From contig JAQGDQ010000077.1 in NCBI GenBank assembly GCA_030141605.1, forward strand, positions 248,001-312,000: DNA of 64,000 bases, in the 5' to 3' direction. The notes under the pieces are model-generated. The model made no database searches. It saw only the letters and a list, made by a program, of their open reading frames with translations, and was not told the DNA's origin. Every line of letters begins with the position of its first letter. The first letter of the stretch is position 1. The position numbers and the translations under genes were made by a program. Of this stretch, positions 91 through 54,610 are shown piece by piece. This stretch comes from Tubiluchus corallicola (taxonomy: Eukaryota > Animalia > Priapulida).

Positions 91-3000
91 AATTCGTGGA
101 AATCCTACGGTTTTCACGTAAATTATTTTTTAAGGATGCGGAGGTGAGATGGGACACAGAAATCTTTTCCAGGGCAGCCTTCATTGCAGTTAAGATCTTT
201 CGCAATTGACAGTCTTTTTACATTAATTTAGATTAAATTTAAGATTAAAACTGTGTAACAATGTTTCTGACAGTAGGAGAATATTTCTAAAATCAATGCT
301 AATTAATTCTATCGATATTAATTAATGATATCGTTAGTTGCCAGCTAATTTGGGAAAGCATTGATACGAATTTTTGAGACAGTTTATAAAGAAAAAGTTT
401 CATTTCTTATTCAGGTCTCTCACCGTTGTGGATATCTACGACGGATTGTGGCATCATTTTTGTCTGGTTGTAGAAAGTGACCCAGATTTCGTACATCTCT
501 ACGTAGATGGAGGACTTGAAGTAAACCAGTAGTTGTTTTGTAAACAATGTTGTATCAATTCTAAAAAATATGATAGCTAAGCTCTATAGCTCTGCGTCAA
601 GCGTCGAAATCTGATTGATTTAAATTATCATTCCGATAATAATAAAAAGTACTTTTAGATTTCAGAGCTGTGCGTCGTAGGTGTAGCGAAAGTGACGTGT
701 TTTTCTCACTGTTACAAAATTTATTGCCACTCTTTAAATAATTGTTAGCAGTCACACATAACCGTGGGAAGCCGTGAACTTTCTTGGGTAGACATTAAGA
801 TTCGGAGGCGATTAGCTTCTTGACCTTTGTGTGTGCTTAGCAACCGAGTTTGACCAACATCGAATCTGGTCAGTAAATGAATAGGTGTCATCAGAAAAAT
901 TATTACATAATGCCGTTCGGAATACCGACCTGAAATGCGAATAAATAATAATCAGTGCTACTTGTTATAATAATGGCTTTGTCTGTTTATTGTCACAGGA
1001 TAATGTCAAGTTATGCAAGTCCTACGTCCTACATACTGCACGGAAAAATCTTATTGTACTTTTTAGGCTTATAAATGCCTCGAATTACCAACTAAATCAT
1101 TTGTTTTACGGTATTAAAAAGACTACCTTGTGAACACGTATAAGACGATTATCCTGAAGTAGCCAGGATTTCGTATAGTGCAGCAGTGCTGCTATGCAAG
1201 AATGTCTCCACGTTTAAGCTAACAATCCACGACGAACTCCATTTAAAATGTTACTGTATAAATTTTGGTGATTTTCATCAGGGACAAAATTGGTCGTTCC
1301 AGAGCCAACAGGGGTGCTTTAAATTGCTTAATGTCAAATTACCATAACTATCTGGCGAACTTCTGCGCTTGCTTTATTATTACCAGTATTTAACCGAACT
1401 GTCTTGTTTCAAACACATTTAAGGTGTTACCAGAAAAAATTGTATCTCCAGCCTGTATCTCCATTTTTGTATGCTTACATTCGTATTTCGTTTTGCATTT
1501 TTCACTGTCAATAGGCCTAATTTCTTGCCTTCTTTTTATGCTTATTTTAGTAAAGAAAAGAAGTAGAATAAGACAAACAAAGCAAAACGAAACAAAAAAC
1601 AAGATTAATGGAAACAAAACGATTCTAAAATGAACAATTATTTTGAATAAAGCTAAGTTGTCATTTTTGTCATTTACAGGCTGGAGGTGAAACAATTTCA
1701 GTGGCAACAGATCAGTATAATAATTTGGATCTGGAAGATTTGGACGAATTCGATCCGGATCCCGTGGGTGCAATTGGTACAACAATATATAATAATGAAG
1801 CGGACGGAGAGGCTTTAGAGGAAGAAGATTATGGATATTTAGGTATGCTCTGTGATTTCAATGTCTACTCCAAAGCTAAGACACAGGGACAAGTTGCTGG
1901 CATTGCTTCGTCTGGAATGAACAACAATGGCGATGTTTTAAGATGGTCAGATATAAACGATATAGCTACATGCGATGTAAGTTGACTGCTAAAATGTTCG
2001 TTACAATTTCACTTGCGTAATGGGGATATTATTGAGTAATAGTTGTGACAATGTCCATAGGACTACCAAGGTTTTACTAAACAAAAATTTAAAAATTTAA
2101 AAGTTGGATGAGTACAGCAGCGAACTTACACCAGCCGTCCACACATTTCCCACATCAGATGTTACAGATTTTTCTGGCCACGCTCTAGCTTTCTTTGGAC
2201 ACTGACTTCACTTTTATTTTTATAGTAACGCTAAAAAATTAATGTTCATATTATCTGTTAGCTGCATTTTCGGAAGTGCTGCTAATAAATTCTCCTATCT
2301 TATTTGACTTCATTTGCTTTGAGTGTTGATTAATTTATTAAATTCTGTGCAGTCATAGACGGTCAGTGTAAATGATGTTGACCAGCATTATATTAAAATC
2401 CATGAAGTTATCTAAAATATATTAATTCTGCTCTGCATACAGCTTCAACGGCTTCACAATTTCCGGCGATTCATATGTCAAACGAAAGACTAGTTTAAAT
2501 TATTTTCCATAACTGGTGGGTGTGGGGTTATTTTACAATGACCCGTCAATCTGGGTGTTGATTGGTTGGTAATAAAAGCATGTATGGCAATGGTTGTCTA
2601 TGTTAATGAATAAACGTTTATGTCAATCGCTTTTCCAGCAATATGTTTTTATGCAAATCCCGAGCTTGTCTCATTTACTTCCTTTGTATTTTAGGCGCAA
2701 CAAATCAGACCATCTACGTGTCTTACTTCATCAGACTTGAAGAAAAAGTGTGTTAACCCAGCAATTTCCACAGAAGTTTCTGATTTATTTGATATGTTAA
2801 ACGAAATCTCAGAAAAGAGTGAAAGCAGCAAAGGAAGCAACAATAAAAAGTCAAACAAGGCTTCCGGCTATGGTAAAGGGAACAAGCGAAAAACCAGCAG
2901 TAGCAAAAACGGTTACGGCAACAACCAGCAGAATCTTGGTTACAATTCAGAGTTTGGCAACTCTTTCTTCAGTAGATATGCCTTTGACAACAACAATCAT

Positions 3001-3345
3001 GGTGGATACAACAATGGTAATAACAATGGCTATGGTGATATTGGTAACGGCAGAAACGAAGGATATGGAAAGACGAACAGCAATAGTGGTGGATACGGCA
3101 GTGACAGTAATAATGGCTATGGCGGGTTAAATGGGAATATTAAAGGATTTGGTGAAGTTAATTTTAATAATGGCCGCTATAGTGGATTTAATAGGGGCAG
3201 TGGATTTAATGGTAATAGTGATGGACGTGGTGATGGCAACGGCTATAACAGTAACAATAACAATAAGAACTATGGTAGTAATACTGGCACTCATAAGAAT
3301 GGTGAGTACGGGAATAGTAATGGTGCCAATGCTCCTATAGGTTAA
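91..3345 (+). CDS. 3' part of a spliced gene: pentraxin/LamG (concanavalin-A-like) domain followed by a Gly/Asn/Tyr-rich low-complexity tail; 5' end lies outside the window
   Basis: Phase-compatible GT-AG exons 91-117 (tentative), 415-520, 1680-1976, 2695-3345 translate to ...DIYDGLWHHFCLVV...VHLYVDGGLE|AGGETISVATDQ...GYLGMLCDFNVYSKA...GDVLRWSDI. These match the DGxWHHxC, LYVDG and GxLxxFNxY...GxxxxW motifs of pentraxin/LamG domains. Confidence 0.75.
415..520 (+). CDS. pentraxin/LamG gene exon (SLTVVDIYDGLWHHFCLVVESDPDFVHLYVDGGLE)
   Basis: ttcag acceptor, gtaaac donor, WHHxC and LYVDG motifs. Confidence 0.8.
1680..1976 (+). CDS. pentraxin/LamG gene exon with acidic insert
   Basis: tttacag acceptor, gtaagt donor, phase 0-0; overlaps ORF 1701..1985. 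Confidence 0.8.
2695..3345 (+). CDS. terminal exon: linker with two Cys plus Gly/Asn/Tyr/Ser-rich tail
   Basis: ttttag acceptor in frame with ORF 2737..3345; TAA stop; AATAAA-containing AT-rich 3' region follows. Confidence 0.8.
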   Translation, partial: AQQIRPSTCLTSSDLKKKCVNPAISTEVSDLFDMLNEISEKSESSKGSNNKKSNKASGYGKGNKRKTSSSKNGYGNNQQNLGYNSEFGNSFFSRYAFDNNNHGGYNNGNNNGYGDIGNGRNEGYGKTNSNSGGYGSDSNNGYGGLNGNIKGFGEVNFNNGRYSGFNRGSGFNGNSDGRGDGNGYNSNNNNKNYGSNTGTHKNGEYGNSNGANAPIG

Positions 3346-5176: not shown

Positions 5177-29447
<24,271 letters not shown>

Positions 29448-36000: not shown

Positions 36001-37787
36001 ATCTGAAAAACCTGCTGCCTAAATAACTGAAACGTTCAGCAGATAAATTAAACATGGGTGAGGTTTTTTGCAACACTAAGGCAATGCAAAATTACAAAAT
36101 TAATTTTATAGTTCTTGATATTAAGAAGATTTATTTATTTGTCTTTCGTTATTCTTTCATTTTTGGTTACAACTTCTTGCAGTTTACGTCGTGGCTTTAC
36201 CCCAAACCGAGCAGTTTCCTATCTTAACCGATCACGTTCGTCTGCAGTGAATAGCGCAATCAGCAATAATTATTAATACGATTTTTTTCTGTCAAAAGAT
36301 CGAGAAGTGCTTTCTTTGTCAGTGGTTAGCAGCTGCTTCTCTCATGTGCAATACCTTTTAAGTCTCTGGAAAGTAAAACGTTTTCCAAAAAGACCTGCCG
36401 TTTTTGATTTATGCCACTCACGTGTATAAGGCAGTATTGCTTTTTATTGCTCAGGCGATATACAGGACAGAAATAATGAAGTCCCGTAACAGCACACGTG
36501 AGCCCCGTTGCCTTATCATACACATTATAATTATAAATTGTCCATTTTTGCTGTCACCCAATGTCGCTGACACATTTAGAAATTTTATCGTTTAGTTTTT
36601 GTCATCAATTAAAAATAGAAGGTGTTTGTGGTCATACAACTTTCGATAACCAGAAAAGTCGAAACTCTTGTTGGCAAATTTTCCCGGGTTACAATATGTA
36701 CGTTAACTATGAGACTCAGCGTGAAGGGCATGTGGGTGCGTGTGTATTAGAGGGGGAGTAAGCAAAGAAGAACATAGGCGCATAACAATACATTTAGTAT
36801 TTTCTTTTCTTATTTCATTCAAGTTTTTTCTAATTTTACTACCTCTAGTCTAGTAAGAACTTTTGGCACTATCGTGCTTTTCTTTTATTATCTCGATAAA
36901 TTAATGGCATACTAAAATATCGCTAAGTTGACAAAGCAGTTAATATTCATAATTATTTGCGTGGTTATAGGTATTATACTGTTGTTTCTGCAATAACCAT
37001 TGACATCCTCTATTGAAGCCTTTCGATTGACAGTTTCCCGACTGCAGGCAATCAACCAGATTTATGTAATTGTAAATCATAAAATAAAAGTCATTTAGTA
37101 AGAAATTATTCTATTTGCATATTCGAAGCAATATTTATTTATCCCTGCTGTGGTTATTACACATATCATATTAGTACATGATGTGTTCTGCCAATAGTTC
37201 ATAAATTGTGTATAAATAGGAGAACGACGAAAATTTACCAAAGATAAACGGCAACTATATAAATTAGCTTCTTCTCGTTCCATCACAGATCTCGCTTTTG
37301 GTCTCATGTCTGCAGCAGAGAACAGTGAAAGTAGAGAAAATTAATAAGTCACAAACCAAATAATGATGTTACATCAGAAAAGCCAAGCTGAGCCAGAGTA
37401 AAACTCGAATACGCATGTTGCAGCCCTTGGATCACGAATTGAGACCAACTAAGCTAAGTCGATTCTCCTGGATTAGTCTAAATTAAATGCAATGCTGTCG
37501 TTTGCTCGACTGACTGACAAGCGCTCTGATGGGCTGGATGAATAGCTAACTAACTGAGCGATTGAGTGATTATATCCAACTGACTAACCGATTGACCTGC
37601 CAACCAAGTACCTGTATAGGAGATAAACAAAAAAGGGAAGAGCGATAATATTGATTTGTAACAATGCTTTGATGTATGCCAGGGTTAAATTAGCGGTCAT
37701 TGGCTCGAGTCTTAGTTACAGTATTAATGCGGTACATACGTTATAATTAAACCACTGAAATGGCTTAATACAGATTGTTTCATGTCA

Positions 37788-37958
37788 TCACGTGACAATT
37801 CATGTGAAGCCACGTAGTAGCCAAATCTCCTCGCTAACATCGTTTTGCCACATCAAAACTCCCCCTGGACAGTTCCTATTTCACCCGGTCACTTGTAACG
37901 CATTAGACTTATTCTTAAGCTCATTCCGATGACGTCACCACGAGGGTTGGTCACGTGA
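37788..37958 (+). promoter_or_regulatory. promoter cluster: palindromic CRE TGACGTCA (37930-37937) and two TCACGTGA E-boxes (37788-37795, 37951-37958)
   Basis: Exact motifs within about 330 bp upstream of the signal-peptide ATG. Confidence 0.6.
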
Positions 37959-38120
37959 TCGACGCAGGACTTTAGCAGAAGCCTCAGGACTTTCGAGATT
38001 GCTCAACTTGAAACACTAATAAATGAAGTGATTGGACTCGACCGTGACACACGAAACCAAATCGGAAACTGATCAGGACCTTTCGAAAACCGGAAAAGAA
38101 TTCTCCGAGTTAAAAGCAAA

Positions 38121-38213
38121 ATGAGGAGCTTACGAAGTTTAGTTATTGTCACATTTTTTGCAACGATTCTTTGTTTATCATCGGTGCTAGCAACTGCATC
38201 GGCTTCCAGACAG
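38121..38213 (+). CDS. signal-peptide exon of neuropeptide precursor (MRSLRSLVIVTFFATILCLSSVLATASASRQ)
   Basis: caaaATG, basic n-region, hydrophobic core, small-residue cleavage region, CAG|gtaaca phase-0 donor; linkage to downstream exons is inferred. Confidence 0.75.
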
Positions 38214-41200
38214 GTAACAATATTAAACTCATTTGCGTTTTTACAGAGAAAACGTAGGCTTTCAGATAAAATTTTATTATAATTTAATAGGTATTTAAAA
38301 TGCATCAGCATTAAAATAGACAAATGCATTTTACATACATTAATTCTAACACATGAACAGTAACTATATAGATAAAACTAAAATCGTAATACATGTGTAT
38401 AAAAATCATTAGAAAACAACTCAAAAACCAGTACTTTAGGTCCATATTAAATTTTTAATTCGTTAAAAGGGCTTCTTTGTAAAGATAAGTTTTAAGAAAA
38501 TATTTCAAGTGTTCAACATTAGTCATTTTACGTGTATGAATTGGTAAATCGTTCCATAATTAGGGTGCTGCTGCGCAAAAACTAGGAGATGCATATGTGA
38601 CTTCATTATAACGCGGTACAACAAATGTCGATGAACTAATTGATCTAAGATTACGTTTGGGCACGTATGGCTTCAAGAAATCTCATATATAGGATCGTGC
38701 TAAACCATTAAGAGCTTTGATTGATATCAAGAGAATTTTTATTTTATTCTGAAAGAGACGGGCTACTGTGCAGTTGCATGAGAAAATGGGCGTTGCACCT
38801 GGAACAAAACTCAATAATATGTTTTCATAAATAGAATGCCCTAAAAAGAATCAGGTATTTAAAATAATGGTTAATTATCTAATGAATATTATATGGTTAC
38901 TGTTAGAATCACAGCAATTTAACGAATGTTAACAGGTTACTTATAATTAATTACTAAGGATAAGTTAAAATCAAACGCATCCATTTTCAGACAGTTTTTC
39001 TAGTTTTTGTTTACATGTGCCCATGTAGTTATTGAATTATTCTCAATGTATGATGTGATTTGCAGTGTATTAAAAATCCTCAACGATTAGAAAATAAAGA
39101 AGCTTCCATGTAAAAATACATATTATTTCTTTCTAAAAAAATTTTTGCCGTAATTATTTATCGTGATATTTTTTTATATTTACTAGCATTACTACTAAAC
39201 GATGGTGTTTGAATGTCGCGCTTCTGTTTAACTTTTTTGAATGTTTGGACAAAATCTGTTTAAACTATTTGTCGAATTGATTTTTTATACAGTTTGCAAA
39301 TCATTGCTTAGCGCTCGACGATAGGGCGATTAATAAAAATAGGGCATAGGACCGGAATCTACCTTCACTGTTAATCTTCTAGGATGAGACACTGAACCGG
39401 CAGGGGTGTGCTAGCCGCGTTCGATTTGATGTACAGTACAAGTACATCGTAGTTTAAGTTTTAACAAGGAAAGCGCCCAGGAGCTGTGTTTTGGCAGCCA
39501 CCAGACTATTTACTTGATGGTGCTTATGTTCCGCCGCAAAGCACACATCGTGACTGATTTTTTTATTCTGTGCTACTTGTCGTCCATTGGAGCCGGAAAT
39601 TTTAGATTTCTGTTACTTGTGTCATTGCCGCATTATGTAACTTATAATTATTTCCCATCTGTTGGTCACTTCGATATTTGTGACATAAAAAACACCTTCA
39701 AAACATTGAAAAATAATGAAAAATAAAACCTATACAAACTACATTTTACATTTACATATTTATATACTTGATGATATAAGTGAAAAATAATGCGAATTAT
39801 TGCCATATTATTAACTATATTATAGACATAATAAAAGCAGACTGGGATATTTATACAAAATATAAGTATACGACAAAAAACGACGAACGAGATGTTCAAG
39901 ACTGGGTGTACAAGACGGCCATGACTCGCCATTGTTATTGTGACGGTGTTTCTATATTCGGTGCCTTCTTGCTGGTGTTCACTGATCTGACCATTGACTT
40001 TTGAAACCTGTTGACTTGTACTTTAAGCTAATCGATTTGCTCAGCAAAAGGTTGTTTTGATAAATTTTAATAAATCATTAGATTTTAAAATTAATTTTAC
40101 AATTTTGCTGAAATGTACAAAATTTGCTGATTTTAGTCCAAATCCTGCTACGTAATAGTACGAACACATAGAGCGGAAACAGCAGCAAACATTTTGTAAT
40201 CAACCAAAGCAGAGTGGCAACAAAGAACATTATCATAAGTTGAAACTGAGATTAAAATTGGAGAATCTAAGTAATGTCAAAATAAAAAATGGTGGAAATT
40301 TATTTATTAAGTATTAAGTATTAATCTATACATACCACTTGAGTATTTCGCACTGATGCGGAATGGAAAATCGGTTTATGTTGTTTTCAATTCGCCCGTT
40401 TATCAGATCCGCATATCATGTCATAACTTCATAATGTGTATTTATGCATAATGAAACTATTCTAATTACGTCATCTGTTCACAAATAGCGTAGAGATCAT
40501 TTGCTTTAGTCATGTAAATTATATGCTGACCAAAATTAGGAGTTGATTATTTATTTACATGTTTATCGGTCAAACAGCGCAGGCGCGCTTTATTTTAACT
40601 GAAATAGAACGAAAACAATGTGCAAATGCTGAAGAAAAACATTCACACTTTTGCAAATGCACTAATTTTCGTACTGGTTGTTGTTGGCGTAATTAGTCTG
40701 AGTGAAAGTTTCTTTGGGCACTGAACGCTGTCAACTTTTCCCGCATAAGTTCAATGTCTATCATGGTGGCACAATATTTTTGGCTAGCTGTTTAAAATGA
40801 AGCCTATGGCTAGCCAACTTTTCTTAAAAGTGTGTGAGTGTGTGTACGTGTGTGGATGTATGCCTACAGTTTGTGCACGCATATTGATTATACCTTTACA
40901 ATTACTGAATATGGGCCAACTAAAGCATTAGTTGGAGACCTTATAAAAATAAAAATAAAATGTATGAGTTATAGTTTTATTTGCTAGAAAAATAAAGTTC
41001 TTTGCAAAAAAATTGCTAGCAGTTTTTATCTGACAGGCAAGCCAAATGGTGAAACAACTAGTCTCGAGTGCGAACCATTGGTTATTCGCTTATTGAGTTT
41101 TCCTGTCCAACTGCCTGGAAATGTTGTTTAAAGCATCATTTAGCGTTACCGTGGAATCCGCTTCGTGAATATATTAATTATAACACCATTTAGCAGTGCC

Positions 41201-42909
41201 GTAGAATCGGCTTTATCGTAAAAATTTGAAACTCAAAGTTATTCTATTGTGATGTCACAATATAAAAAAATTGGCCATGAACAATGAGAACCAGAACGAA
41301 ACTAACTTCACGGCGAAACTAACTGTTTATATAGTTACGTAGCAAGCGAATAACCCAAAATGAAGAACAATATCTCTCTCTGTGCACTAAATCTATACAA
41401 TTATATGGTATTGCTTTTGAACCATAGTCTCACAATGATCAGAAACATTTGTATTTTAAAAACACGAATAATATTTGTGAAACACTCAATTGCACAATGC
41501 ATGCTAATGAGTGTTAAAACCACAGAAAATTACATATTCAAAAATCAATTTGTAGTCGAAATGTCAAAATTTGATGATTAACGCCGTAAGGATTTTGTTT
41601 GAGTTTGATAAAAGATCTGGTAGATTAGCTTACTAATCAAGGACAGATTTTTAAATAGGATGTAACCGAGCATTTCCCAAAAAAGGCTATTATCTGTCTA
41701 ACAAGGAAATGGACAATAATATTGTAGGCAAAAGCTTACTGCACCCTTTTGATGAGCATCATACTGTTACCGATTGATGTATGAATGGCCGCGATACATA
41801 ACACTTTCTGAAGTGCCAAAGTACCTTTTAGCGTATTAATGCCTGGAAGTATTACAGTTTTACACCGTGTGCATGCTGTCTACCACAATTCTCGTAAAAA
41901 TCACACATAAGCAATTGCTCAAGGTTATTTAATGATTTTGACATATTTTGCATTTTTATTTTCAAAATAGTAGTTGAATTGAAAATTTTTGTCTTTTTGA
42001 AAGTGATTAGCGAAATACAGGGTAGTACATCACCTTTTGCTAGTGGTACAAGAAAACAACAACTAACAGTACAGAACAGTATATTATGTCAAAGTATTGC
42101 TAAATCAATAGAGAATTTGTCATGCCCTCAATATGTAGTGAGAAAGCCTCGTGCGATATGTCTTGAGAGATATGATTGGGGCAACTCGAAATCGAACTCA
42201 AGATCCTCTAACACAATTTGCTGATGCGTGACAAGCCTATAGGTTACTGATCATGATCAATGGCATGTTCTTGGATCATCTTAGCCTTCACTCGGTCTTT
42301 CAGGATGTGCTTGGTGGGTTGAAGTTGGATGAATTTCCATACCATTCAGTTCAAAATTTACACAAGTAGTTAGTATTACAGTATTTTGTGGGCGTCTTTA
42401 CAACTGTTCAATTTGCTCGTGTCTTTAAATTAGCGTTTTAACACTAGGGCTATATCTTACTTCTTTTCAAACCACTTGTTTCACAACAAAAAATTTGCGA
42501 TGATCCATATAGAGAAGTAATGTAGACTGAACGAACTATTATTTGACGATTGTAATGTTTGCTTTCTCATGATGCAAAAATTTACATTATTTTTTCTCAT
42601 TCTTGTCAATCTTAATTTTATGTTGGGGTCTTATTCAACTTTTGTCTATTTGTGCGCTGCCAATAACTTTAGTTTGCTTCATTTAACGAGTTTCTGATGC
42701 TTGTGTCTTTATTTGAAAGCAAGTGTGTCTGGTTTTCTTTAGTTTTCGCTTGCAATGCTAAAATCATGAAATGACGACTTATGATTGTGTTTCTAACACG
42801 TGAACAATTTACTGTAATCACCTCAGAATGATGCGTAGAACATGAACTATTTTTGCTTACGTTTCCTGAGATAATAAAACAGCGTTTTGTTCTTTGTTTC
42901 TTTCTTTCT

Positions 42910-42932
42910 TTCGTCTCGTCTCGTCTCGTCTC

Positions 42933-43030
<98 letters not shown>

Positions 43031-43255
43031 TCTCACTCTGTCCGCCGGCCTGCCTGCTTGCCTACCTGTCTTTCTGTTTACCTACCTACTTAAATACTTA
43101 CCTACTTACTTATCTGCCTACGTACCTACCAATCACACGACTTTCCTACCTTCTTACTTGCTTACAAACCCACCTACTCAATCTCCTACTCATTTAATCA
43201 AGCAACTACTCAACGACCTATCTACCTACTACCCACCTACCTACCGACCTAACCA
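42910..43255. repeat. (TCGTC)n + (TC)n + degenerate (CTAC)n compound microsatellite
   Basis: direct reading. Confidence 0.93.
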
Positions 43256-43984
43256 ATAATAAATATAAAGGGCTCTTAACACCAGTTAATTTAGACATTT
43301 AATTACGCAATTGACAAGTTTCCAAGGAAAATGGGAGTTAATAAATAACGATTACTGTTTTAACTAAACAAGAAGTTTACTTGTCTTGTCGAAGACCAAC
43401 ATGCCTCACAGTTTGGCCTGTTAAACTTAAGTTGTTAACAATTGCTGAAAGTCTTCCTTTGCTTACTTCCCTGTATTTGAAATTGTCTTCAAAGATCAGT
43501 CTTCACAAAATTGCAAAATTGAGATCCAACAAACCACTGTTCTTGTTGGTAATTTTGCTATTCAAGATCACAGGTTTCAGACTCCCCTGGACATTAGATT
43601 TCATATTATTCGTCGTAATTTCGCATCATCCGCAGATGGGTGTACGACTGCTGGCTTACAGCCAGCCGACTGCAAAGATATTCGCTATCTGATTTTTCTG
43701 TTACCAACGGGATGCTAGTCAATAATAGATCAAATGATGATCGCGCTAAAAGACTGAATTGCTAAATTTTCTGTTTCGTAAGGTAAGAGTTATAAAAGTT
43801 GTACTATCTCCTTTGACTGCACACTAGCCTCTGCTCGTGAACATTGCTTTATTTGTGGAATGATATACGCACAGATTTTGCCTTGTAGTCTTGGCATGTG
43901 CAAGGAATGTTGCTGTTACCTCGCATAACCTGTAGCTGTTTCACCTGCTGATTTTTCACTCGCATGTGCTTGAGCATAGGTTTT

Positions 43985-44270
43985 CATTGTCATCATGCCA
44001 CCACCATGATTGACTGTCATTATCATAATCATCGTCGACGTCGTTATCATCTTTATTATGATTATGATCATCCTAGTCACTAACCACAATCAAGAGCATC
44101 ACCACTACCACCATTATCTTGATCGTTGTCGTGTCCACCCTCTTCCTTCTCCTCCTCCTCTCTTCATCGTCATCATCATCAACATCATCATCATCATCAT
44201 CATTATCATCATCACCATCATAATCATCTTCAACTTCATAGCTGTCATTATCATCATCATCATCATCCCA
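43985..44270. repeat. degenerate (CAT)n tract
   Basis: direct reading. Confidence 0.85.
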
Positions 44271-46537
44271 GTTATTTAGTTTGGTCCTTTTTCCAATATG
44301 GTGTTAACGACCTATTTAAGAAAACGCAGTTGAATAAAAACTCTTTCTTACCATTCAAAACTTTGCATATACAATAACAAACACATAGTGAGTTTCTATA
44401 ATGAAGTTTTAGACACAGTAGAAGTAGCATTGCATGTAGGCCTATATGATAAACTAAATCTCACGGACAAGGATGGTCGGTCATTATACTTTTGCCTGCG
44501 GGTTTACTAAGAAACGTTTCAACTTACTAAGCCTTGAAATTTTATGCAAACAACCGACGTACTGTATTTTTCGTATAGTTTCCGCAGGCTTACAAATTTG
44601 TTTTCCGAGGAAATCATGCAAGTACTTCGCCATTTAACTCATTGACGCATGGTTTCATATCCGCTGATGATGTATGCATTATTTCGATTTCCGTATAACG
44701 AACGATCGACGAGCAAAACTTTAAACACACTTTCGTGGTTGACAAAGTAAACGCATTATTAACTGGGATTAAACCGGAAAAGCTGTAATTTAAGTTGGTT
44801 CTATGTTACACTGTTGTTGCATTAATGTTTGGCGTCTTCATCTAGCCACTAGAAAGGCAGGATAGTCTGATAAATGAATAAGTTTGTTTACGGCTGATTA
44901 AATGTTCCGAAGCAATGTCTACCACGCGACCTATTAGAAGCGCATAAAAAAGCATTATTATAAGATAGAAAAGAGCTGCAATCTGGTGCCTCATATCTGT
45001 ATCACAGCTTTCGTTTTTTATTATAGCACAAATAACAAAATTATAGTTTTTTCGTTTTTTAGCGAAAAGAGCACAACACGCTATAACTTTTTCGTCTACA
45101 ATAACTTGTCGCTGTAATAAAAATACCAGGATTCATGCTAACTAAAAATATAAATATTTAACTGGCTAATGTTTTTATACAGAACAAATATGCTTTTAAA
45201 ATTCATTAATTACTGTGGCTATTTATTGATAAAAACTAAAAAGATCTTTTTAAACAACCAACTTTCTGAAAAGCTCTGAGTGGTGTTAACGGTGGGTAGA
45301 AAGGAAATTGCAATATTTGCTTTTATTTGCCCAGATTGCCATCTTGTAGACCCTGCGTAGTGACAGTTTTCGAAATCATTGTACAGCCTAGACATGGCAC
45401 TATTTGAGCACTGACACGCGCTTAACACTAGTCATGCGGGTATTCGGTATTTGTTAAATCGTTTGTGTGCCATAGTTACACAGTTTTAAATGAGATAATT
45501 TCGCCAATTTTGTTCAAGGCTAACAAATGAACTGTAAAGGCTTCATTTTAAACTACATTTACGAGCTTGCTTACCTCGTCAATTAAAGGCAGTTAAATAA
45601 AAACAAATCGTTAACAATTTGTAGAAATGTTAGTATGACTTGAGTTGAACATGTGTCGTAGCTCTTACACTGTAGTATAACCTCCTCCCCGTGCATCATT
45701 ACAACTAATTTGGCTTCACTTTTAGTTGCATGGTTAACTCCTAATATAATCATTTTGGTAGTACAGTTTACACAATACACAAGCCCAAAATCATGTTATT
45801 TACTTTGCGCATTATAACTACTAACTGGTGCATTACCGGTGGTTATTCTTTTGGAAGAAAGTTATCGCAAATTTCAATTAACTTTCATTTATTATTTTTC
45901 CATAATGTAAGCAATTGCATGTAATGTAATGTAATCATTACATGTCATGTTTGCATTTGGACCAGTTATGTAATAATTCTATATCTGTATATGATCGCGA
46001 TAGAAACTGCAATATTATTATTCCATCTGGCCTATATAAAAAACGAAGGCCTGTATTTCAGTGCATATAAGATCTTACGATCAAATGAAATTGACAAAAA
46101 TAGTTGTATTTGTAACGTGTGCGCATTTCAGGTGAGAAAAAATTCAGTGGCAGAATAAGTTAACCTATATTTTTTGGCCAACAGTCAACGAAATCATCGA
46201 AGGATAATTTCTTTTAACGCCAACGACAGTGTGGCAGGAAGAATACAATTTCTTTTCTTACAAACCCGTTTACTATGATTGTCGGCACCTTATACTTTTT
46301 TCACTCTGAAACGTACGCACGAGAACGCCCATAGCAAAAAAGATTCTGAGTATTACAAGTTTACCAGCTTATTTGTCAATATTGTTGTTCTTGACAACGC
46401 ATCTACATCGTTTGCGATAACTTGTTAATCTTCTTTAACCTTTACCTTAAAAAATTCATAGTTACTGCGTAAATATTTTGCGTTTGTCTTCACACAAGTC
46501 ACGATGTAACTTAAAAAATATTTTAACTACGTTTCAG

Positions 46538-46729
46538 GGTGAAGACAGGTGGAGACTAGCTCAAAAGCTTATTCAACGGGTATTCGATAGAACATTACTA
46601 GACGCCATAGCTCTGCGTCGGAATCGGATGGATTTTCTCCCAGAGAAACGGGATGACGATTATTACAGAAAATGCTCGATTAATCCAATCACTTGCTTTG
46701 GTAAACGGAAAAGATTCTCTCTGGATTAG
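46538..46729 (+). CDS. AstC: terminal exon A of allatostatin-C/somatostatin-family precursor; predicted peptide DDDYYRKCSINPITCF-amide
   Basis: tttcag acceptor, phase 0; KR|DDDYYRKCSINPITCF|G-KRKR; C-x6-C-F ring as in insect AstC (CYFNPISCF). Confidence 0.88.
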   Translation, partial: GEDRWRLAQKLIQRVFDRTLLDAIALRRNRMDFLPEKRDDDYYRKCSINPITCFGKRKRFSLD

Positions 46730-49700
46730 TCAGCTGACGTTCTCCGAGTTAGACATGAAAAAACTTGCCACATCATTTCACTTCCATTGGGCGATAAGCG
46801 TAAAGATTAGAAAAAATTTGTTTTTAGCTTAAAATTTTGTAATGTAGCATTTACAGCATGTAAAACTATTCAATCATAACTTCATTAGTATTCGTTTTTT
46901 TGTTCAATATAAATAATTCATGCCAAAAATGGAATCTTGTGAATGTGAAGCAAGTGCGAGAAATTTGATGTGTAGTTCAGTGATTTTTTGTATTTCCTGG
47001 CAAATTTCTATTTATACTCATAACGGAAACTTGTAACTGAGACTTACTTTAACAAGCGGAGCCAATTTTTTTCTACCCCACGCCAATTCAGTCTTAATTC
47101 CATTTAAGGAAGTAGAATTCATTACTAGCTGGTGTGGCTGTTGTCACATGCTCACAGTGTCTCAGACAACATTATTAAGAGACCTGTGTCGTAATTTTAT
47201 AGGACAGATAAAAATTTGAATGTCATTTGTTATTTTTTGGCAAGACTGGTAAAAATAAAACAGCAAACATAAAAGTAGTTATTCACACGATTTATCTATA
47301 GGTGTGCTTTGAACTCGACTTCACGTGATGAGATTGGTGGCCTGTGTGATCCTTGTCCAAAAGGACGAAATTTTAGCTCTGCCTATAGTTAGGAAATGTA
47401 AAGTGCTGGTCCAAATGATCTAACCCAATTCCAAATTTCCCAATATCTCTTCTTATAATTTAAAAATTTATAAATGCTGCCAGTGCTTCAGTAGCCGTCA
47501 CTTCTGCATGTTATGTGTAGCCGTCGCTTCTGCATGTTATGTAGCAAAATACAAATATAAAATTCTCCATGTAAATAACGTAACAACAGTGCATCTACTC
47601 AGGCTTGCTCGCTTAGTTCTGTTCGGTAAAATTTTGTCCTATATTTCTATTGGACTGATGGTTGAAAAGAAACTGCCTGATATTAGCATCACGTTTCTAC
47701 ATCTGAAGCTCAACATTTGAGCTATCAATTTATCACTTGTTGGCAAATAATAGTAATGATACCACAAATAATGGTAATGACGTAACACATCTATAGAAAC
47801 CTAGCACTTTTTATTAGATTATATGGCCTTCAAAGGCGTCCTATAATATGCTTACAGCACACAGTCTTACCAACTAATTACAGAATCATGTTTCTTGCCT
47901 TGTACAGTATCTCTCTTTTATATTCTTATTTATTTCAGCTAAAACAATTTATTGCACAACGCCTACAGTCTACACCCACTGGGAATTTTAGCCAATAATA
48001 ACTTTGTGTTAATCACTTTCCGTGAAACCTTTGAATGACTAAGTTATTGTTATTGTAAAGAGTGCAACAAAACCTTCTTTAATTTAGGAGAATTTGGTTT
48101 ATTCAACAGGAAACATCTTTATTTTTTATGCAAACTATATCATGTTGTATAAGCTTTTTTATGTAAACTTGTTTTAGTTTGTTTCATTTTGAATGAAATT
48201 TAGTAGATTCTTTTGAAATAACACAATTATTATGAAAAACCTATGTATATAAGCTGCTCAGAAAAACAATGTATTGTAAATTAGGTAAATGATTTAGCAG
48301 GTATATTAGCATTTTTATTAAACAAAGTTATAGCTTGAGCAATGCGCTCATGATACCACACGTAACGTTAGTCTAAATATTATAATTTTGCAATAATAGA
48401 ACTGTATTCATTTGCGTTCACTGTAGTCAATAATCGTTTTTGAAATAGTTATGTTTACATTGGCAACACTACGCCATTCTTCAACAAGATAAGTAAAACT
48501 ATGTATTTTGTGTTAAACCTTTTCCAAAAGTCGGCTTCCGCTCGTCTTGGTTTAAATTTAACAAATTATCAAAAACTTGTATTTTTACTTTGTTCGTCGT
48601 ATTTGAGTGTATTCAAGTGTGTGTGTGTGTGTGTGCAGATTTTTTTATTTGTGACAGAGAGACAAAAATAACAAAATCTACATTTGGTTACTTGTTTTGT
48701 TTTAATTTGGCTCCACGCGTCGGTAAGAACATTATAACAAAGGGCGTTTTTCCGAAATATTTGATTTTGCAGATCTTGAATTTACTCTTAGTGTGTGACC
48801 ATTTACCGTCCGCAGTGCGGAGCGATATTTAGGAAACTGCAGACAGACAACTTTGATAGATTAATATTTCTCACAACTAGATTACCAAATATTCTCCGGA
48901 GAAGATTCGGGTTTAATCGCTCTAAATTAATTAAATCTTCGAAAATGATAAATTGCTAGCTACCAAATTTATTCCATGAGACTCAAGTACTTCTATGTCC
49001 CATGACTTTACTTGGTTGAAATCTGTTACCATTGATGAAAGCTTTCGTGTTAAAAACATTAACAAGAAAAACATTAGAAGCAATGAAAAATTGTTATACT
49101 GTCCATTGTATAAGAGAGTTATGTCTCAAAAGTTATATTATAACTACTGGAGATTTACTACTACTACTATAACAAAAGATTAGAGACATAACATGAACAA
49201 GACTTCGCGTGATCTCTCTCATGTTTCTTAGCGTCATGTAAAACTCACAAGGCGAATAATTTTAATGCATAATCTAAGGGCTCGAGCCGCGCAACTAAAA
49301 GATACTAATTTTCTCTTAATGCGATGTTGTCCCAATGGAACACTCATATTTACGCGGTGCACGCGCAAAATTGCTTCGTCGCGGTGTGCTGTTATATGAG
49401 CACTTAAATGGCTATGGGCTTAAATAAGCTTTCTAAACATTAAAGACTACCCTTTGCTTCAGGCCTTCTATTCAGCTGTTGTTATTATATAGGCTGCTAG
49501 TAATGTGGTCTATACTATGCTAGGCCCTGATGACAAAAGTGTCTTAGTGACAACCTAATAACAACGAGGAATAATCAGGGGTGGTACAACAATTCGGTCA
49601 CTGGAGCCGAGTGTGGTTGTATTTCGACGACTAACTGAATTTGAAATAATGCTTTGAACCTCCATCATTGAATACCATCTGATAAAGCCTCGGTTCCCCA

Positions 49701-50429
49701 GTTACTTTTCTACTAGGTATTTTATTGTAAAAGCAACTTTGTAAAGAAATCCTGCCGTAAAAGTTTTTGCTCGTTAATGTTTTTATATTTCGTTTTGGAT
49801 GTAGTTTGTATTTAAATGATTTGTTTGCGTTCTTTCAGTTAATGACTTCAAACTGAGATACGTACTTATGCTTCCCATCAGCAAAAAGACGTAAATCGAA
49901 ATCAGTAATAGGAGGTAGCTCAGTAATGTAGATAAGAAAAAGCAGTGGTACTACTATTATACTACTCGAATTTTCGATTTACATGTATGAGATATACCGT
50001 TTTCAGTTGACTGCTAAAATGATGTAGTAATGACAGCCTGGTCTAACTGTTTTATATTTCAGATCTCGGGCGTGCTTGGTTTACGAATAACAGGGCAGCA
50101 GGTATTTTATTTGAGACGGTAGTTTGGGTATATACATGCTGAATCAAGGGACGTCTCTCAGCTCATATCGGCTGGTTTAAGCGTTTCTTTTCTACCTTAT
50201 GAAATGTTGTCACTTCTGAATAAAGCTCTCTGCCACTTCTAAAGCAGATTGTTCAAAGATTGTCCAATAAGCAACGAGGTGCAAGCCGTTTCTGCAAGGT
50301 CTGAACCTTTGCATGTACCGTTGCTACATTACCATCAGGGAATAGTAACATATAGTCGTGTTGGTTATGTCAAAGAAGTAGCAGCCTTTTATCAAGTTGT
50401 ACACTGTTTCAAATTCAATTGCAGAACGA

Positions 50430-50545
50430 TTATAACAATAACGGCGGCAGTGGCGCCAGTAGCAGTAACAGCAATAACCATGACAAAAACAACAACAGCA
50501 ATAAACAACAACAACAACAACAGCAACAACAAAAACAACAACAAG
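50430..50545. repeat. degenerate (AAC/AGC)n tract
   Basis: direct reading. Confidence 0.8.
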
Positions 50546-50620
50546 AGAGCGTTTTTAAATATTGTGTAAGCAGCAGCTGTACAATATGTACCTTTAATGT
50601 GTTTAGCTTTACACATTTAG

Positions 50621-50638
50621 CTGGATGGCTTCGATCAG
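50621..50638 (+). CDS. candidate 18-nt microexon (LDGFDQ) of precursor B
   Basis: catttag acceptor, CAG|gtaagc donor, phase 0-0, 0.7 kb upstream of exon B. Confidence 0.4.
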
Positions 50639-51339
50639 GTAAGCCGTAGAAACCAAGATGCGCACTAAGACTTTACGGATAATATTTCAAAATATAAAAA
50701 AAAATTAAGGCAATTGCAGACACTGTTATGCGAATGTCATTAAAGACTATCCAAAACGATTTCCTTTAAAATGTCAAAATAAATAACGCTAATTTTGGCA
50801 AAATGATTTGGCTAATTATAATGGGGGTATACTAGATCGAGAGCTCTTAGTCCACAATTTGTGGCTTTGCTCTAAAACTAAAAGAGCAATAAAAGGCTTA
50901 GAACAGAATTTTTCAGTTGCGCTCCGATTTTAAGCGTTTTAAAATTCACAAAATGCTTAAATGAGACCTCACAAATTTTGCTCCGTTTAATTATATAGTA
51001 CAATCGTTACGTGGGCATAGCTTTGATATAGAGAACACATTTGTGAACACACGATATTTATTTGCTGTGCAGTGTTAGTTTCTGTATTGTTAAGGCATTA
51101 AATCGAAGAACCTTTTACGCGTTTTACAGTAACTATTATAATGAAAGATAAAGAATAATGGAAATGCAAAATGCACGTAAAAGTTTAATTAAGTTTATTA
51201 ATGTTATCAAAGTATTGCAATTAAGTGTGCGAGTAAAGGATGCTATGTAAGCATATCTTCGATACATTTTAATTGCACCAGAACGCGAATGCCACTTATA
51301 TACATAATAATTATAAATTCACTAAAACTTTTTTGCTAG

Positions 51340-51504
51340 GAACTGAATCCTGACACTTCATCGATTCTTAACGAGCTGGCCAATAGAATAGCCGAAGAGT
51401 CTTTTCGCGATCCGGACCAGGACCTCATACTGGCGGTGAAAAGAGAAAATTACAGGAAGTGTTTCGTCAATCCCATTTCGTGTTTCGGCAAGCGTCGAAA
51501 GTAA
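51340..51504 (+). CDS. AstC: terminal exon B of allatostatin-C/somatostatin-family precursor; predicted peptide ENYRKCFVNPISCF-amide
   Basis: ttttttgctag acceptor, phase 0; ELNPDTSS...VKR|ENYRKCFVNPISCF|G-KRRK*; AATAAA at 51909; missed by the ORF track. Confidence 0.9.
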   Translation, partial: ELNPDTSSILNELANRIAEESFRDPDQDLILAVKRENYRKCFVNPISCFGKRRK

Positions 51505-52829
51505 CCAGGATGGAAGTAGAGTTGTGGAATTCTAGAAGTTAACTGGCAACTCGAGATTGGAATTATTTATTATCTGCTAGCCCGTTTAGTATCCAAAACA
51601 AAAAGTTATTGTTTTGGTAAAATTTAATTTTGTTGTTTTACACTAATGTTGTTGTTTTAAGTCAAGAAGATATTTAAAATATAACGTGGATTTTCGAGCT
51701 CAGATTAACCAAATCTTTTCCTTAGGAAAACCCGCCAGGATAGGAAATTAAATACGTAGAAACAGGAATTCTAATGTTACTTTTCAAGCAGCAGAACAAA
51801 AATGATTAAAAATAATATGATTACTAAAATATGTTTATCGCACCTTGTGCAATAGCAAGACTGAAAAAGAACAATTATCAAATTTTGTAAATAGGAAACT
51901 ACCGTACCAATAAAATTGAAAAGCACAATAATGCGGCCTTGCTTACTAATGTTATATATGTAGTGTTTGTATGTAATATGTAGTCAGTATGTAGGTATCC
52001 TATAGGTATAGTATAAATTGTTATAAATAATTAGTGCTTTCTGGAGGATATCCAGTGCACCCCAGGAAGCTATCTAGCTATCTAGACGCAAAATGTTTTA
52101 GACATACGATATCTGGACACATAAACACTAAGTGTTTTGGGCACGTAAGTCACTTCAGAATGAGGTACTTTTTAGATTAATAAGCCTTTTTAGATTAATA
52201 CTTAGGTACATAGGTAATTTCGAGATTTACCTATCACAGGTCGTTTAAATATATAGGTTATTTTGATTTGTAGGTGATTTGAAAAACATAAATAAATCAC
52301 CTTGAAAGTCAGACATAAATTTGGAGATATACTTAATTTTGACATATATGTCACCTGTGATCCTTTGACATATAGGTCCCTGTGATCAGAGACCTAAGTT
52401 CAAATTCGGCTCAATCCCCGACTTTTTCACATTTTGTTTGTTTCAGCCATATTTGGATTGGACTGGGATGTGATATCATTTAGCAACATAGGTTGTTTAG
52501 CTATACTTTATTCTGGGGGACGGGTGTATTTCACCCGTTTCTATACGCCAACCGTAGCGCAGGTACGGTGGCTAGACTTACTCGCGTTGCCGTTCTTGTT
52601 CTTGTACACACTTCATAAAAATGCGTTGTAATTAGCGAACGGATCACGATCAGATGTGGTAGGTATATATGTTGGGAACTAGCAACCACACACACGCGCG
52701 CGCGCGCAGTAACGGAAAGTTTTTCTTCAAGAGTACCCAGGGTTTTATAGTAACTCCCGAAAACTTTAAAGTGCTACTTGTTCTACATTCTTCGTGAAAT
52801 TTAATTTAGCTTACGGTGCTGACAGGTAA

Positions 52830-54610
52830 TCACCCACTTCACCGGTTATCTTTTCGTCAGCTTATTTTTTCGCCAGTCTATCTTTTCGTCAATGTAATCG
52901 TGACTAACGCTGAAGACTTAACTGACCTAGAAGTCCCCATTATAGGTATCAACATGATTTCATTTAACCGCTTTGTGAAAAGAAGATTTAAGTCTTACAG
53001 ATGCGTGCCATATATCATTGGATTCGCTATGAATCGTAGAATCTCATGCATTTCGTCAAAGTCGCGAGTCGAGTTCTGTTTAGCCAGAAAACGGCAATAA
53101 ATAGGATGTCTAGTCGAAAATTTGACATTCAGGATCTTCTGTTATTTTCGTTCTGTGATGTTTAGTTTACGAGATACGCATCTTTTTTGGAATAACTCAA
53201 AAACGTGACTGTGTAAATTTGGTATGCTTGTAGCTAGTGTAATTTCGGGTCGTGACCCTTTGACCCGCCCGAATTATGATCCGAAAATCGTTAAAATATG
53301 TCTATTTTTTATAAACCAATACTCCTACAAGAAGTGCCACCAACCAAGATGGCACACAGTGATGATAGTTCGATCAATTATCTATCCAATAATGTGCACA
53401 CAGCCACCACCGCCGCACGGCTGCCACGCTATCCCTGTTTTTCTGGACCTATGTCAGTACCATACTTAGACTTACATAACAGATATTGGTGAGGTTCAGA
53501 AAAATCAGGACCTCGAGTCCTAACAGCTTCTCGGCCTAATAAACTAAAGACGTCTCTATCTCGAGTGTCAGCCACCTGATCTTTCGGAAGGCTTTCTTCA
53601 AGAGATATGGCTTCCCAAATCAGGCATTTTGACACTTCGCTTCACATATTAAAGGAAACATCTCGTTTGTGCTATTTGCCAAATTTCGGTTACTTTCGGG
53701 TAAACAAAAAAGAGAGAAAATATTTAACACAGCGCATCTTATTCTACGTTTAATGGTAAATTTTTTTGTCACGGTTACGTATTTTCTCGGCTTTTGGCTT
53801 CCATTCACAGAGCGCTTAAAGGAAACCATGTCGGTTTTTCTCTATTGTCCATATTGTCAATAATGTATTGTACGGCAATTTCATGTTTGATGCCTTGTAG
53901 AACGACAGCGATGTCAGGGCTCGACAAAACGGAGACGGTATCTATAGCCAAAGCACAGTACTTTACTTCAGCTTGTAAAGGCTTTGTTTCGTTTGGATAG
54001 GTGATGTTTCTTGTAGGAGCAATGGTTTATCTATCAAAGATTGACATATTTTGACGATTTTCGGGTTACAACTCAGGGCGTAAAAGCGTCACGACTCGAA
54101 ATTACAAGCTAAGGTGGCTCTTTACCTACCAAGAGTACGCCAAATTTGGTTAAGTAGCACTGTCTAGTTTTGAGTTATTCCAAAAAGATGCGTATTTTGG
54201 AAACTAAACCTCGCAGAACGAAAACAACAGCAGACCCTGAATGTTAAATTATCGACCGGACATCCAATTTATTACACCGTTGTGGCTAAAAGAAACTCGA
54301 CTCGCGATGCATCTGATTCTACGTTTCCTTCCGAATCCAATGATATATGGTACGTCTCTGTAGGACTTGTATCTTCTGTTCATAGAGCTTTTAAATAAAA
54401 CCATGTCGATAAATAATGGCCAATGGTGACTTCTAAGATCTGTTAGGTCTTCAGTGTTAGTCACGATGTCATGATGTGTTGGCAAAACACTGGAAAAAGA
54501 TAGACTGGCGAAAAGGCAGACTGGTGAAAAAATAGACTGGCGGAAAGATAAACTGGCGAAAAGATGCACTGGTGAAAAGATAGACTGGTGAATTGTTCCC
54601 CGGCGAAACG
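52830..54610. mobile_element. non-autonomous fold-back/MITE-like element with ~0.5-kb imperfect inverted arms and terminal short subrepeats
   Basis: About 52830-53300 is the reverse complement of about 54050-54610 (e.g. atcgtgactaacgctgaagac at ~52897 vs gtcttcagtgttagtcacgat at ~54447); both ends carry ttcgccagtctatcttt-like units. Confidence 0.7.

What the first reader, a model, noticed from the sequence alone, without database searches (positions are those of the whole stretch)
46538..51504. Two paralogous amidated allatostatin-C/somatostatin-type peptides encoded 4.6 kb apart
Seen: two phase-0 exons with the same layout KR-peptide-G-basic cluster-stop, giving DDDYYRKCSINPITCFa and ENYRKCFVNPISCFa (shared YRKCxxNPI[S/T]CF). 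Exon B is missing from the ORF track. Established: C-x6-C-F is the AstC ring, AstC is the protostome counterpart of somatostatin, and insect PISCF-type AstC ends in a free acid while amidated arthropod paralogues end in AVSCFamide. Inference: a PISCF/PITCF ring plus amidation, with Ile/Val instead of Phe before Asn, is an unusual combination and may be a lineage-specific duplicated ligand pair.
Basis: partly seen in the sequence, partly recalled or inferred. Interest (0 to 1): 0.88.

Follow-up and report, generated by a model that had tools for sequence, protein, structure and literature searches.

The report
One allatostatin-C gene, two alternative peptides
In an unidentified invertebrate, a single hormone gene joins one shared front exon to either of two duplicated last exons and so is predicted to release two slightly different ring-shaped allatostatin-C peptides, an arrangement already described for this family in some beetles.

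Summary
Both exons are real (46538-46729, 51340-51504), but they are two alternative last exons of one gene, not two genes. Transcript-like contigs of a public run begin both exons with the same upstream letters. These match (20 of 21) the end of a signal-peptide exon at 38121-38213 with a phase-0 GT donor. The two isoforms are 94 and 85 aa, each with one amidation-ready C-x6-C-F peptide. Isoform B has a poly(A) end near 51922 in a second run. The closest named relative is Priapulus caudatus 'prohormone-1-like' (XP_014663882.1), with ring C-QVNPIS-C-F-G. The 'unusual' mix of Pro ring, non-aromatic residue before Asn and Gly is therefore already in public databases. Duplication of the last exon with alternative splicing is described for beetle allatostatin CCC (PMC6585902). 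The host is unidentified; a priapulid-like animal is my guess. Caveats: only 21 letters lie on the upstream side of each junction, from one run, and no RNA contig covers either ring's end. Verdict: a genuine new member of a known family with a precedented gene design. Interest is moderate to low.

The parts
37930..37937 (+). Perfect palindromic CRE-type site, with two CACGTG E-boxes at 37789 and 37952; candidate promoter elements (function inferred, label recalled)
   Evidence: 1 of only 2 such sites in the window, about 190 nt upstream of the ATG; untested
38077..38120 (+). 5' untranslated part of the signal exon covered by run X6 (true 5' end unknown)
   Evidence: X6 contig 38077-38161
38121..38213 (+). 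Shared first coding exon: 31 aa, hydrophobic signal-peptide-like sequence, ends in a phase-0 CAG|GTAACA donor
   Evidence: X6 contigs cover it to 38214; resembles the N-terminus of the Priapulus precursor, 0 of 5000 shuffles as good
38214..46537 (+). Intron to exon A, 8324 nt, GT..AG, phase 0
   Evidence: X6 junction letters match the exon-1 end 20 of 21 and the intron end only 8 of 21
46538..46729 (+). Alternative last exon A: pro-region, KR, peptide DDDYYRKCSINPITCF (46652-46699), Gly (46700-46702), KRKR, stop; isoform 94 aa
   Evidence: X6 contig 46535-46687; 3 of 4 listed differences synonymous
47254..47259 (+). First AATAAA after exon A; candidate poly(A) signal of isoform A (not shown to be used)
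   Evidence: no contig shows this end
51340..51504 (+). Alternative last exon B: pro-region, KR, peptide ENYRKCFVNPISCF (51445-51486), Gly (51487-51489), KRRK, stop; isoform 85 aa; intron from 38214 is 13126 nt
   Evidence: X6 contig 51338-51459; 4 of 5 listed differences synonymous
51505..51922 (+). 3' UTR of isoform B with AATAAA at 51909 and a poly(A) end just after 51922
   Evidence: an X5 contig 51515-51922 goes on into a run of A; the window has no A-run there

Best explanation
This is one allatostatin-C-family neuropeptide gene whose peptide-coding last exon was likely duplicated in tandem; transcript-like contigs join the signal-peptide exon at 38121-38213 to either copy, so it is predicted to make two secreted precursors, each releasing one disulfide-ringed, amidated peptide. 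Shown by sequence or calls: the three exons, GT-AG phase-0 joins in frame, both junctions in one run (21 letters on the upstream side), a poly(A) end for B in a second run, and mostly synonymous differences in both exons. Inferred from established neuropeptide processing: the signal peptide is removed, convertases cut at KR and at the basic cluster, the Gly gives the amide, and the two Cys form the ring. Inferred and untested: isoform A ends at its own poly(A) site before exon B, so the choice is one of alternative last exons, probably differing between cell types; both peptides act on AstC-type GPCRs, most likely as inhibitory modulators of gut or body-wall muscle, feeding or neurosecretion, as in other protostomes.
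For: Both X6 contigs, one on exon A and one on exon B, start with the same loose letters. These match one place in 64 kb, 38193-38210, with 0 matches in 100 shuffles, and end at the GT donor: 20 of 21 letters fit exon 1, against 8 and 7 of 21 for the intron ends. All 5 X6 records lie on the three exons and none in the introns (4 of 30 bins), while DNA run X1 covers all 30 bins. Exon 1 independently resembles the Priapulus precursor's N-terminus (0 of 5000 shuffles). Exons B and A are 46% and 41% identical to that precursor. The Atlas puts the Priapulus protein nearest to 'Prohormone-1-like' (0.91) and 'Allatostatin C' (0.89) clusters. A six-residue loop, Asn in the loop and a phase-0 pro-region intron are family features (PMC9048919 section 12; PMC7536072 passages). 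The same design is described for AstCCC in two beetles (PMC6585902 section 43).
Against: Only 21 letters lie on the exon-1 side of each junction, under the tool's bar of 31 for a bridging record. The tool listed no joint for X6. Both junctions come from a single run whose RNA nature is a guess and whose sequence is 90-99% like the window, so it is another individual or population. Neither X6 contig reaches the second Cys or the Gly. The A contig ends at 46687 in adapter-like letters. The B contig ends at 51459, and its 9 loose letters differ from the window at 3 places, including the first Cys codon; I read this as a contig-end error, but it is unresolved. The pro-regions alone are not significantly alike (A vs B 1947 of 5000 shuffles; vs Priapulus 506 and 238 of 5000). 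No Pfam family matched the exons. The FxP motif and the extra phase-2 intron of fly and worm AstC genes are absent. No peptide or receptor data exist.
Confidence: 0.85

Rival explanations
1. Two tandem genes, as in the arthropod AstC/CC/CCC triplication, with exon B having its own signal exon between 46729 and 51340.
For: Local gene duplication is known in the family (PMC5141488 and PMC5831470 passages). Nemerteans have two AstC paralogues. One weak hydrophobic ORF with phase-0 GT sites starts at 47508.
Against: The X6 contig on exon B starts with exon-1 letters. The 47508 candidate starts in a 26-bp tandem repeat, scores lower (2.22 against 2.79) and has no X6 cover.
Confidence: 0.04
2. One exon is the working copy and the other is a decaying duplicate that is still spliced but gives no active peptide.
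For: The pro-regions have diverged beyond significance. The loose end of the B contig changes the first Cys codon if taken at face value.
Against: Both exons keep open frames, processing sites, Gly and both Cys in the window. Listed differences are mostly synonymous: 3 of 4 in A and 4 of 5 in B, although the contigs carry 5 and 9 other letters in all and the rest were not listed. B's 3' UTR is polyadenylated in a more distant relative.
Confidence: 0.06
3. The shared upstream letters are an assembly or library artefact (a chimeric contig or template switch), and one or both junctions do not exist in vivo.
For: The anchors are short (21 letters) and come from one run, whose contigs carry adapter-like tails.
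Against: Both joins fall exactly on a GT donor and AG acceptors and keep the frame. Exon 1 is homologous to the N-terminus of the Priapulus precursor, found by a search that did not use it.
Confidence: 0.03
4. The peptides belong to the somatostatin/urotensin-II (SSRP-like) family or are a venom or secretion mimic, not AstC ligands.
For: Lower-ranked Atlas hits include urotensin-2 (0.79) and somatostatin (0.77) clusters; the tool calls scores under 0.9 leads only.
Against: There is no FWK/IWK motif. The six-residue loop has Asn and a PI[ST]CF end. The closest relative is annotated prohormone-1-like, a name used for an AstC-like precursor.
Confidence: 0.02

Closest known systems
Priapulus caudatus 'prohormone-1-like' precursor, XP_014663882.1 (isoform X2, 83 aa) and XP_014663881.1 (X1, 96 aa)
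   Same: Short precursor with a similar signal region, KR, [DE]-[YN]-[FY]-R-K-C start, ring ending VNPISCF as in exon B, then Gly and basic residues; 46% and 41% identity to exons B and A.
   Different: Its two annotated isoforms share one ring and differ only after it, so there is one peptide, not two. It has Gly-Gly after the Phe. Its gene structure and the rest of its genome were not examined.
Unnamed 79-aa precursor P0002 from a Logan assembly
   Same: Ends in KR-DYFRKC...PISCF-G-RRK; 55% identical to the Priapulus protein.
   Different: His in place of Asn in the loop; organism unknown; one sequence only.
Allatostatin CCC gene of the beetles Nicrophorus and Aleochara (PMC6585902, section 43 read)
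   Same: A signal-peptide exon spliced to either of two duplicated last coding exons, giving two slightly different AstC-family peptides.
   Different: There the two acceptors lie in one last exon, the longer mRNA holds both peptides, and the first product lacks the C-terminal basic residues. Here the exons are 4.6 kb apart, both keep Gly plus a basic cluster, and the ring is of the Pro (PI[ST]CF) type rather than NAVSCF. An independent origin is inferred.
Arthropod AstC (PISCF), AstCC and AstCCC/prohormone-1 (PMC5831470, PMC5141488 passages; sequences in the PMC9048919 supplement)
   Same: C-x6-C-F ring two residues from the end, Asn in the loop; PISCF as in AstC; Gly-Lys amidation signal as in AstCCC precursors.
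   Different: Three separate genes. Fly and beetle AstC precursors end SCF-RK without Gly and have Phe before Asn. Fly and worm genes have an extra phase-2 intron.
Spiralian AstC and nemertean AstC2 (PMC8557429 supplement part 7)
   Same: Precursors of about 85-100 aa in nemerteans, many with Gly plus basic residues and non-aromatic residues before Asn; a single phase-0 intron in spiralian genes.
   Different: No Pro in the ring in the sequences seen. The two nemertean forms have different signal peptides, so they are separate precursors.

Membership tests
Protostome allatostatin C | Two Cys enclosing six residues near the C-terminus (PMC9048919 section 12) | tested here: met
   C-SINPIT-C and C-FVNPIS-C, each followed by Phe
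Protostome allatostatin C | Asn within the loop (most members) | tested here: met
   Both peptides
Protostome allatostatin C | Short secreted precursor: signal peptide, pro-region, dibasic site, one C-terminal peptide | tested here: met
   94 and 85 aa isoforms; signal peptide judged by hydropathy and by likeness to the Priapulus N-terminus, as no SignalP-type tool was available
Protostome allatostatin C | Phase-0 intron in the N-terminal/pro-region (PMC7536072, PMC9048919) | tested here: met
   Donor after 38213, 93 nt from the ATG, phase 0
Protostome allatostatin C | Sequence relationship to annotated members | tested here: met
   Profile search finds Priapulus prohormone-1-like at E 1.5e-12 (the profile included P0002); Atlas neighbours of that protein are Prohormone-1-like and Allatostatin C clusters
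Protostome allatostatin C | Activates an AstC-type GPCR | not testable with these tools
   No genome is held; no receptor sequence or assay
Arthropod/nematode PISCF-type AstC subgroup | FxP motif in the loop (common, not strict) | tested here: not met
   I-N-P in A and V-N-P in B; Priapulus also has V-N-P
Arthropod/nematode PISCF-type AstC subgroup | [quoted passage not shown] | tested here: not met
   Both pro-regions are continuous in DNA and in X6 contigs
Arthropod AstCCC / prohormone-1 | NAVSCF-amide consensus (PMC5831470) | tested here: not met
   Rings end NPI[ST]CF; only the amidation signal is shared
Somatostatin / urotensin-II / SSRP-like | FWK/IWK core motif (PMC7536072) | tested here: not met
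   No Trp in either peptide; no Pfam Somatostatin or Urotensin_II match at E up to 1
Duplicated-last-exon neuropeptide genes (beetle AstCCC, DH37/DH47 type) | One upstream exon spliced alternatively to homologous last exons | tested here: met
   Both junctions seen in X6 contigs with 21-letter anchors; a single run, under the tool's 31-letter bar

The most novel reading that the evidence does not exclude
The host is unidentified. If it is a hemichordate or xenacoelomorph, groups with SS/AstC-type receptors for which no precursor had been identified according to PMC8851493 (2022), this gene would supply the missing AstC-type ligands. It would also show that a six-residue, Pro-containing, amidated ring is the ancestral bilaterian form, and that one gene can make a switchable ligand pair. 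The likeness to Priapulus in both the peptide and the signal region argues for an early-branching ecdysozoan instead.
Probability: 0.06. Interest if true: 0.75.

Novelty: new member of a known kind. Interest (0 to 1): 0.36.

Why it matters
The two peptides were not found in the papers or databases searched, so the gene appears to be undescribed. It is a second, probably independent case of the AstC family expanding by exon duplication and alternative splicing rather than by gene duplication. If the host is priapulid-like (my estimate about 0.55, from sequence likeness only), it and the Priapulus record suggest that the ancestral ecdysozoan AstC combined the Pro ring of insect AstC with the amide of AstCCC. 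That would bear on how the arthropod triplication divided these features. It gives a small, testable ligand pair for receptor assays. It does not reveal a new mechanism.

Tried and rejected
No genome is held for the window, so copy number, receptors and host identity could not be checked. The look-up of sequencing runs listed no holder on record as RNA; X6 and X5 came in by species label only. My first scan for signal exons missed the true exon because its donor patterns were too narrow; a looser scan found it, with 2 other candidates before exon A and 1 weak one between A and B. Word-index searches with exon A alone (0 of 11 candidates) and with one neprilysin exon (0 of 104) found nothing, so the neighbour gave no host clue. 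Of the 3 HMMER hits, P0001 (a repeat protein with no matched stretch) and P0003 (no ring) were dropped as chance; P0002 was kept. Two metagenome scans found no relative. Pfam gave no family for the three exons, Rfam had 0 matches in the window, and PDB sequences had 0 matches to the profile. Whether X6 is spliced across the neprilysin gene was not tested. Exon-A 3' UTR and poly(A) use are not covered by any transcript-like contig. Paper searches for NPITCF and NPISCFG found 0 papers. PISCFamide gave 2 papers. One applies it to a partial crayfish AstC. The other applies it to fly, moth and beetle AstC, although the fly precursor has no Gly, so I treat that use as loose. Supplement searches of PMC8557429, PMC9048919 and PMC8851493 did not find these peptides or the Priapulus one. 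Subscription papers, including the 2016 triplication paper, are not in the library, and bioRxiv supplements were not consulted, so an earlier description cannot be excluded. Look-ups of earlier scan findings by place, sequence and words gave nothing on this gene.
Full report
Observation. The window is 64 kb of AT-rich (34.7% GC) animal-like DNA. Exon A starts after a CAG acceptor at 46537 and encodes 63 aa, ending KR-DDDYYRKCSINPITCF-G-KRKR-FSLD-stop. Exon B starts after a TAG acceptor at 51339 and encodes 54 aa, ending KR-ENYRKCFVNPISCF-G-KRRK-stop. The two align at 37% identity, mostly in the peptide. A post-hoc pattern for this layout occurs twice in the window and never in 200 composition-preserving shuffles. 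No third peptide exon was found downstream of 38213.

One gene, not two. Six public runs were listed; none is on record as RNA. Laying four of them on 38000-54000 showed that run X6 (same species label, guessed RNA) has only five records here: three on 38077-38214, one on exon A and one on exon B. The A and B contigs both begin with the same loose letters. These match a single place in the window, 38193-38210, with no match in 100 shuffles. That place is the end of an exon that starts with ATG at 38121, encodes 31 hydrophobic, signal-like residues and ends at a phase-0 CAG|GTAACA donor. For both contigs, 20 of 21 letters before the acceptor fit the end of this exon, against 8 and 7 of 21 for the intron ends. 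The isoforms are 94 and 85 aa. In a second run, X5, a contig over 51515-51922 runs into a poly(A) stretch shortly after the AATAAA at 51909, and the window has no A-run there. Of the differences listed between X6 and the window, 3 of 4 in A and 4 of 5 in B are synonymous; the contigs carry 5 and 9 other letters in all, and those near contig ends were not listed.

Limits of that evidence. Each junction has only 21 letters on the upstream side, under the tool's 31-letter bar, and both come from one run. Neither contig reaches the second Cys or the Gly. The B contig's last 9 loose letters differ from the window at 3 places, including the first Cys codon. The A contig of the same run ends in adapter-like letters, so I read this as a contig-end error, but it is not settled. 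The 3' end of isoform A is not seen. One weak hydrophobic ORF at 47508 is the only candidate private signal exon for B; it starts in a tandem repeat and has no X6 cover.

Relatives. A profile of the two exons against 1.84 billion representatives gave 3 hits, of which one, P0002, is a complete 79-aa precursor with a matching ring, unnamed. Adding it to the profile found 2 of 11 candidates: P0002 itself and Priapulus caudatus 'prohormone-1-like' (E 1.5e-12), which ends KR-DYFRKCQVNPISCF-GG-RK. Its two RefSeq isoforms share that ring. Exons B and A are 46% and 41% identical to it. Exon 1, which took no part in the search, matches its N-terminus better than all 5000 shuffles; against P0002, 139 of 5000 did as well. 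The pro-regions alone are not significant. The Atlas places the Priapulus protein next to Prohormone-1-like (0.91) and Allatostatin C (0.89) clusters. Exon B's own best hits were an unnamed arthropod cluster (0.91) and Prohormone-1-like (0.82). The host could not be identified; a priapulid-like animal is an inference from this likeness alone.

How it most likely works. Tandem duplication of the last exon is inferred to have given two acceptors competing for one donor. Use of A with its own poly(A) site gives isoform A (inferred); skipping A gives isoform B. Standard processing (established knowledge: signal peptidase, prohormone convertase, carboxypeptidase, amidating enzyme, disulfide formation) would release a 16- and a 14-residue cyclic amide. 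Action on AstC-type GPCRs as inhibitory modulators is inferred from the family, whose reported roles include inhibition of muscle contraction and feeding (PMC8514136 passages). It is untested here.

Comparison with what is known. PMC9048919 (passages, section 12 and supplement hits) defines protostome AstC by a six-residue loop, usually with Asn, often with FxP, and a phase-0 pro-region intron, and argues that AstC and somatostatin are paralogous; PMC8851493 (passages) and PMC7536072 (passages) bear on the same point. The gene meets the loop, Asn and intron criteria. It lacks FxP, the fly/worm phase-2 intron and the somatostatin FWK motif. Amidation-ready AstC precursors with non-aromatic residues before Asn are common in nemerteans (PMC8557429 passages and supplement part 7). 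PMC6585902 (passages and section 43) reports that the last coding exon of the AstCCC gene is duplicated and alternatively spliced in two beetles, and that DH37/DH47 probably arose the same way. PMC4888303 (passages) describes alternative last exons for CNMamide. PMC6188537, PMC5141488, PMC5831470 and PMC9960350 were seen as passages only. Neither peptide was found in print; subscription journals are not covered.

Verdict. A real, apparently undescribed AstC-family gene that makes two predicted amidated peptides by alternative last exons. The peptide type has a near relative in RefSeq, and the gene design has a published precedent in the same family. It is a new member of a known kind, interest 0.36. 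The interest would rise only if the host proved to be a lineage that lacks a known AstC ligand, or if the two peptides proved to differ in receptor use.

Noticed in passing
window 5180-18373, - strand: A multi-exon M13 (neprilysin/ECE-like) peptidase gene: 10 reading frames hit Peptidase_M13 or M13_N (1, 9 of 149 frames scanned), with an intact HEITH zinc motif in 7929-8084. It points away from the AstC gene. M13 peptidases degrade neuropeptides (recalled), but nothing here links the two genes functionally.
   Followed up: partly
window 22041-22190, - strand: An EGF-like exon (Pfam E 4e-10) lies 3.7 kb upstream of the first M13 exon on the same strand; if spliced to it, the peptidase would carry an N-terminal EGF domain. 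Not tested with transcripts.
   Followed up: no
window 365-3345, + strand: Likely 3' part of another gene: a weak Laminin_G_3 hit (E 0.03, below cut-off) at 365-529, an acidic frame at 1647-1985 and a 216-aa Gly/Asn/Tyr-rich frame at 2695-3345; no Pfam family for the last two.
   Followed up: no
window 37789-37957: A perfect CRE-type palindrome at 37930 (2 in the window) and two CACGTG boxes lie just upstream of the signal exon; such a site is also known from the vertebrate somatostatin promoter (recalled).
   Followed up: no
runs X5 and X6 laid on window 37300-52400: Runs under the same species label as the best DNA holder share next to none of its words and are mostly 90-99% (X6) or under 95% (X5) alike where they lie, which hints at cryptic species or loose labels. 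X5, guessed to be DNA, holds a poly(A)-ended contig with an adaptor-like other end, so it is probably at least partly cDNA.
   Followed up: partly
P0004/P0005 (Priapulus caudatus XP_014663882.1, XP_014663881.1): An AstC-type precursor with a PISCF ring followed by Gly-Gly, annotated only as prohormone-1-like; it was not found in the three AstC supplements searched.
   Followed up: partly
window 52846-54592: A high-copy repeat with a 16-bp unit, present in both orientations, with many partial contigs in DNA runs; a likely non-autonomous mobile element just downstream of the gene.
   Followed up: no
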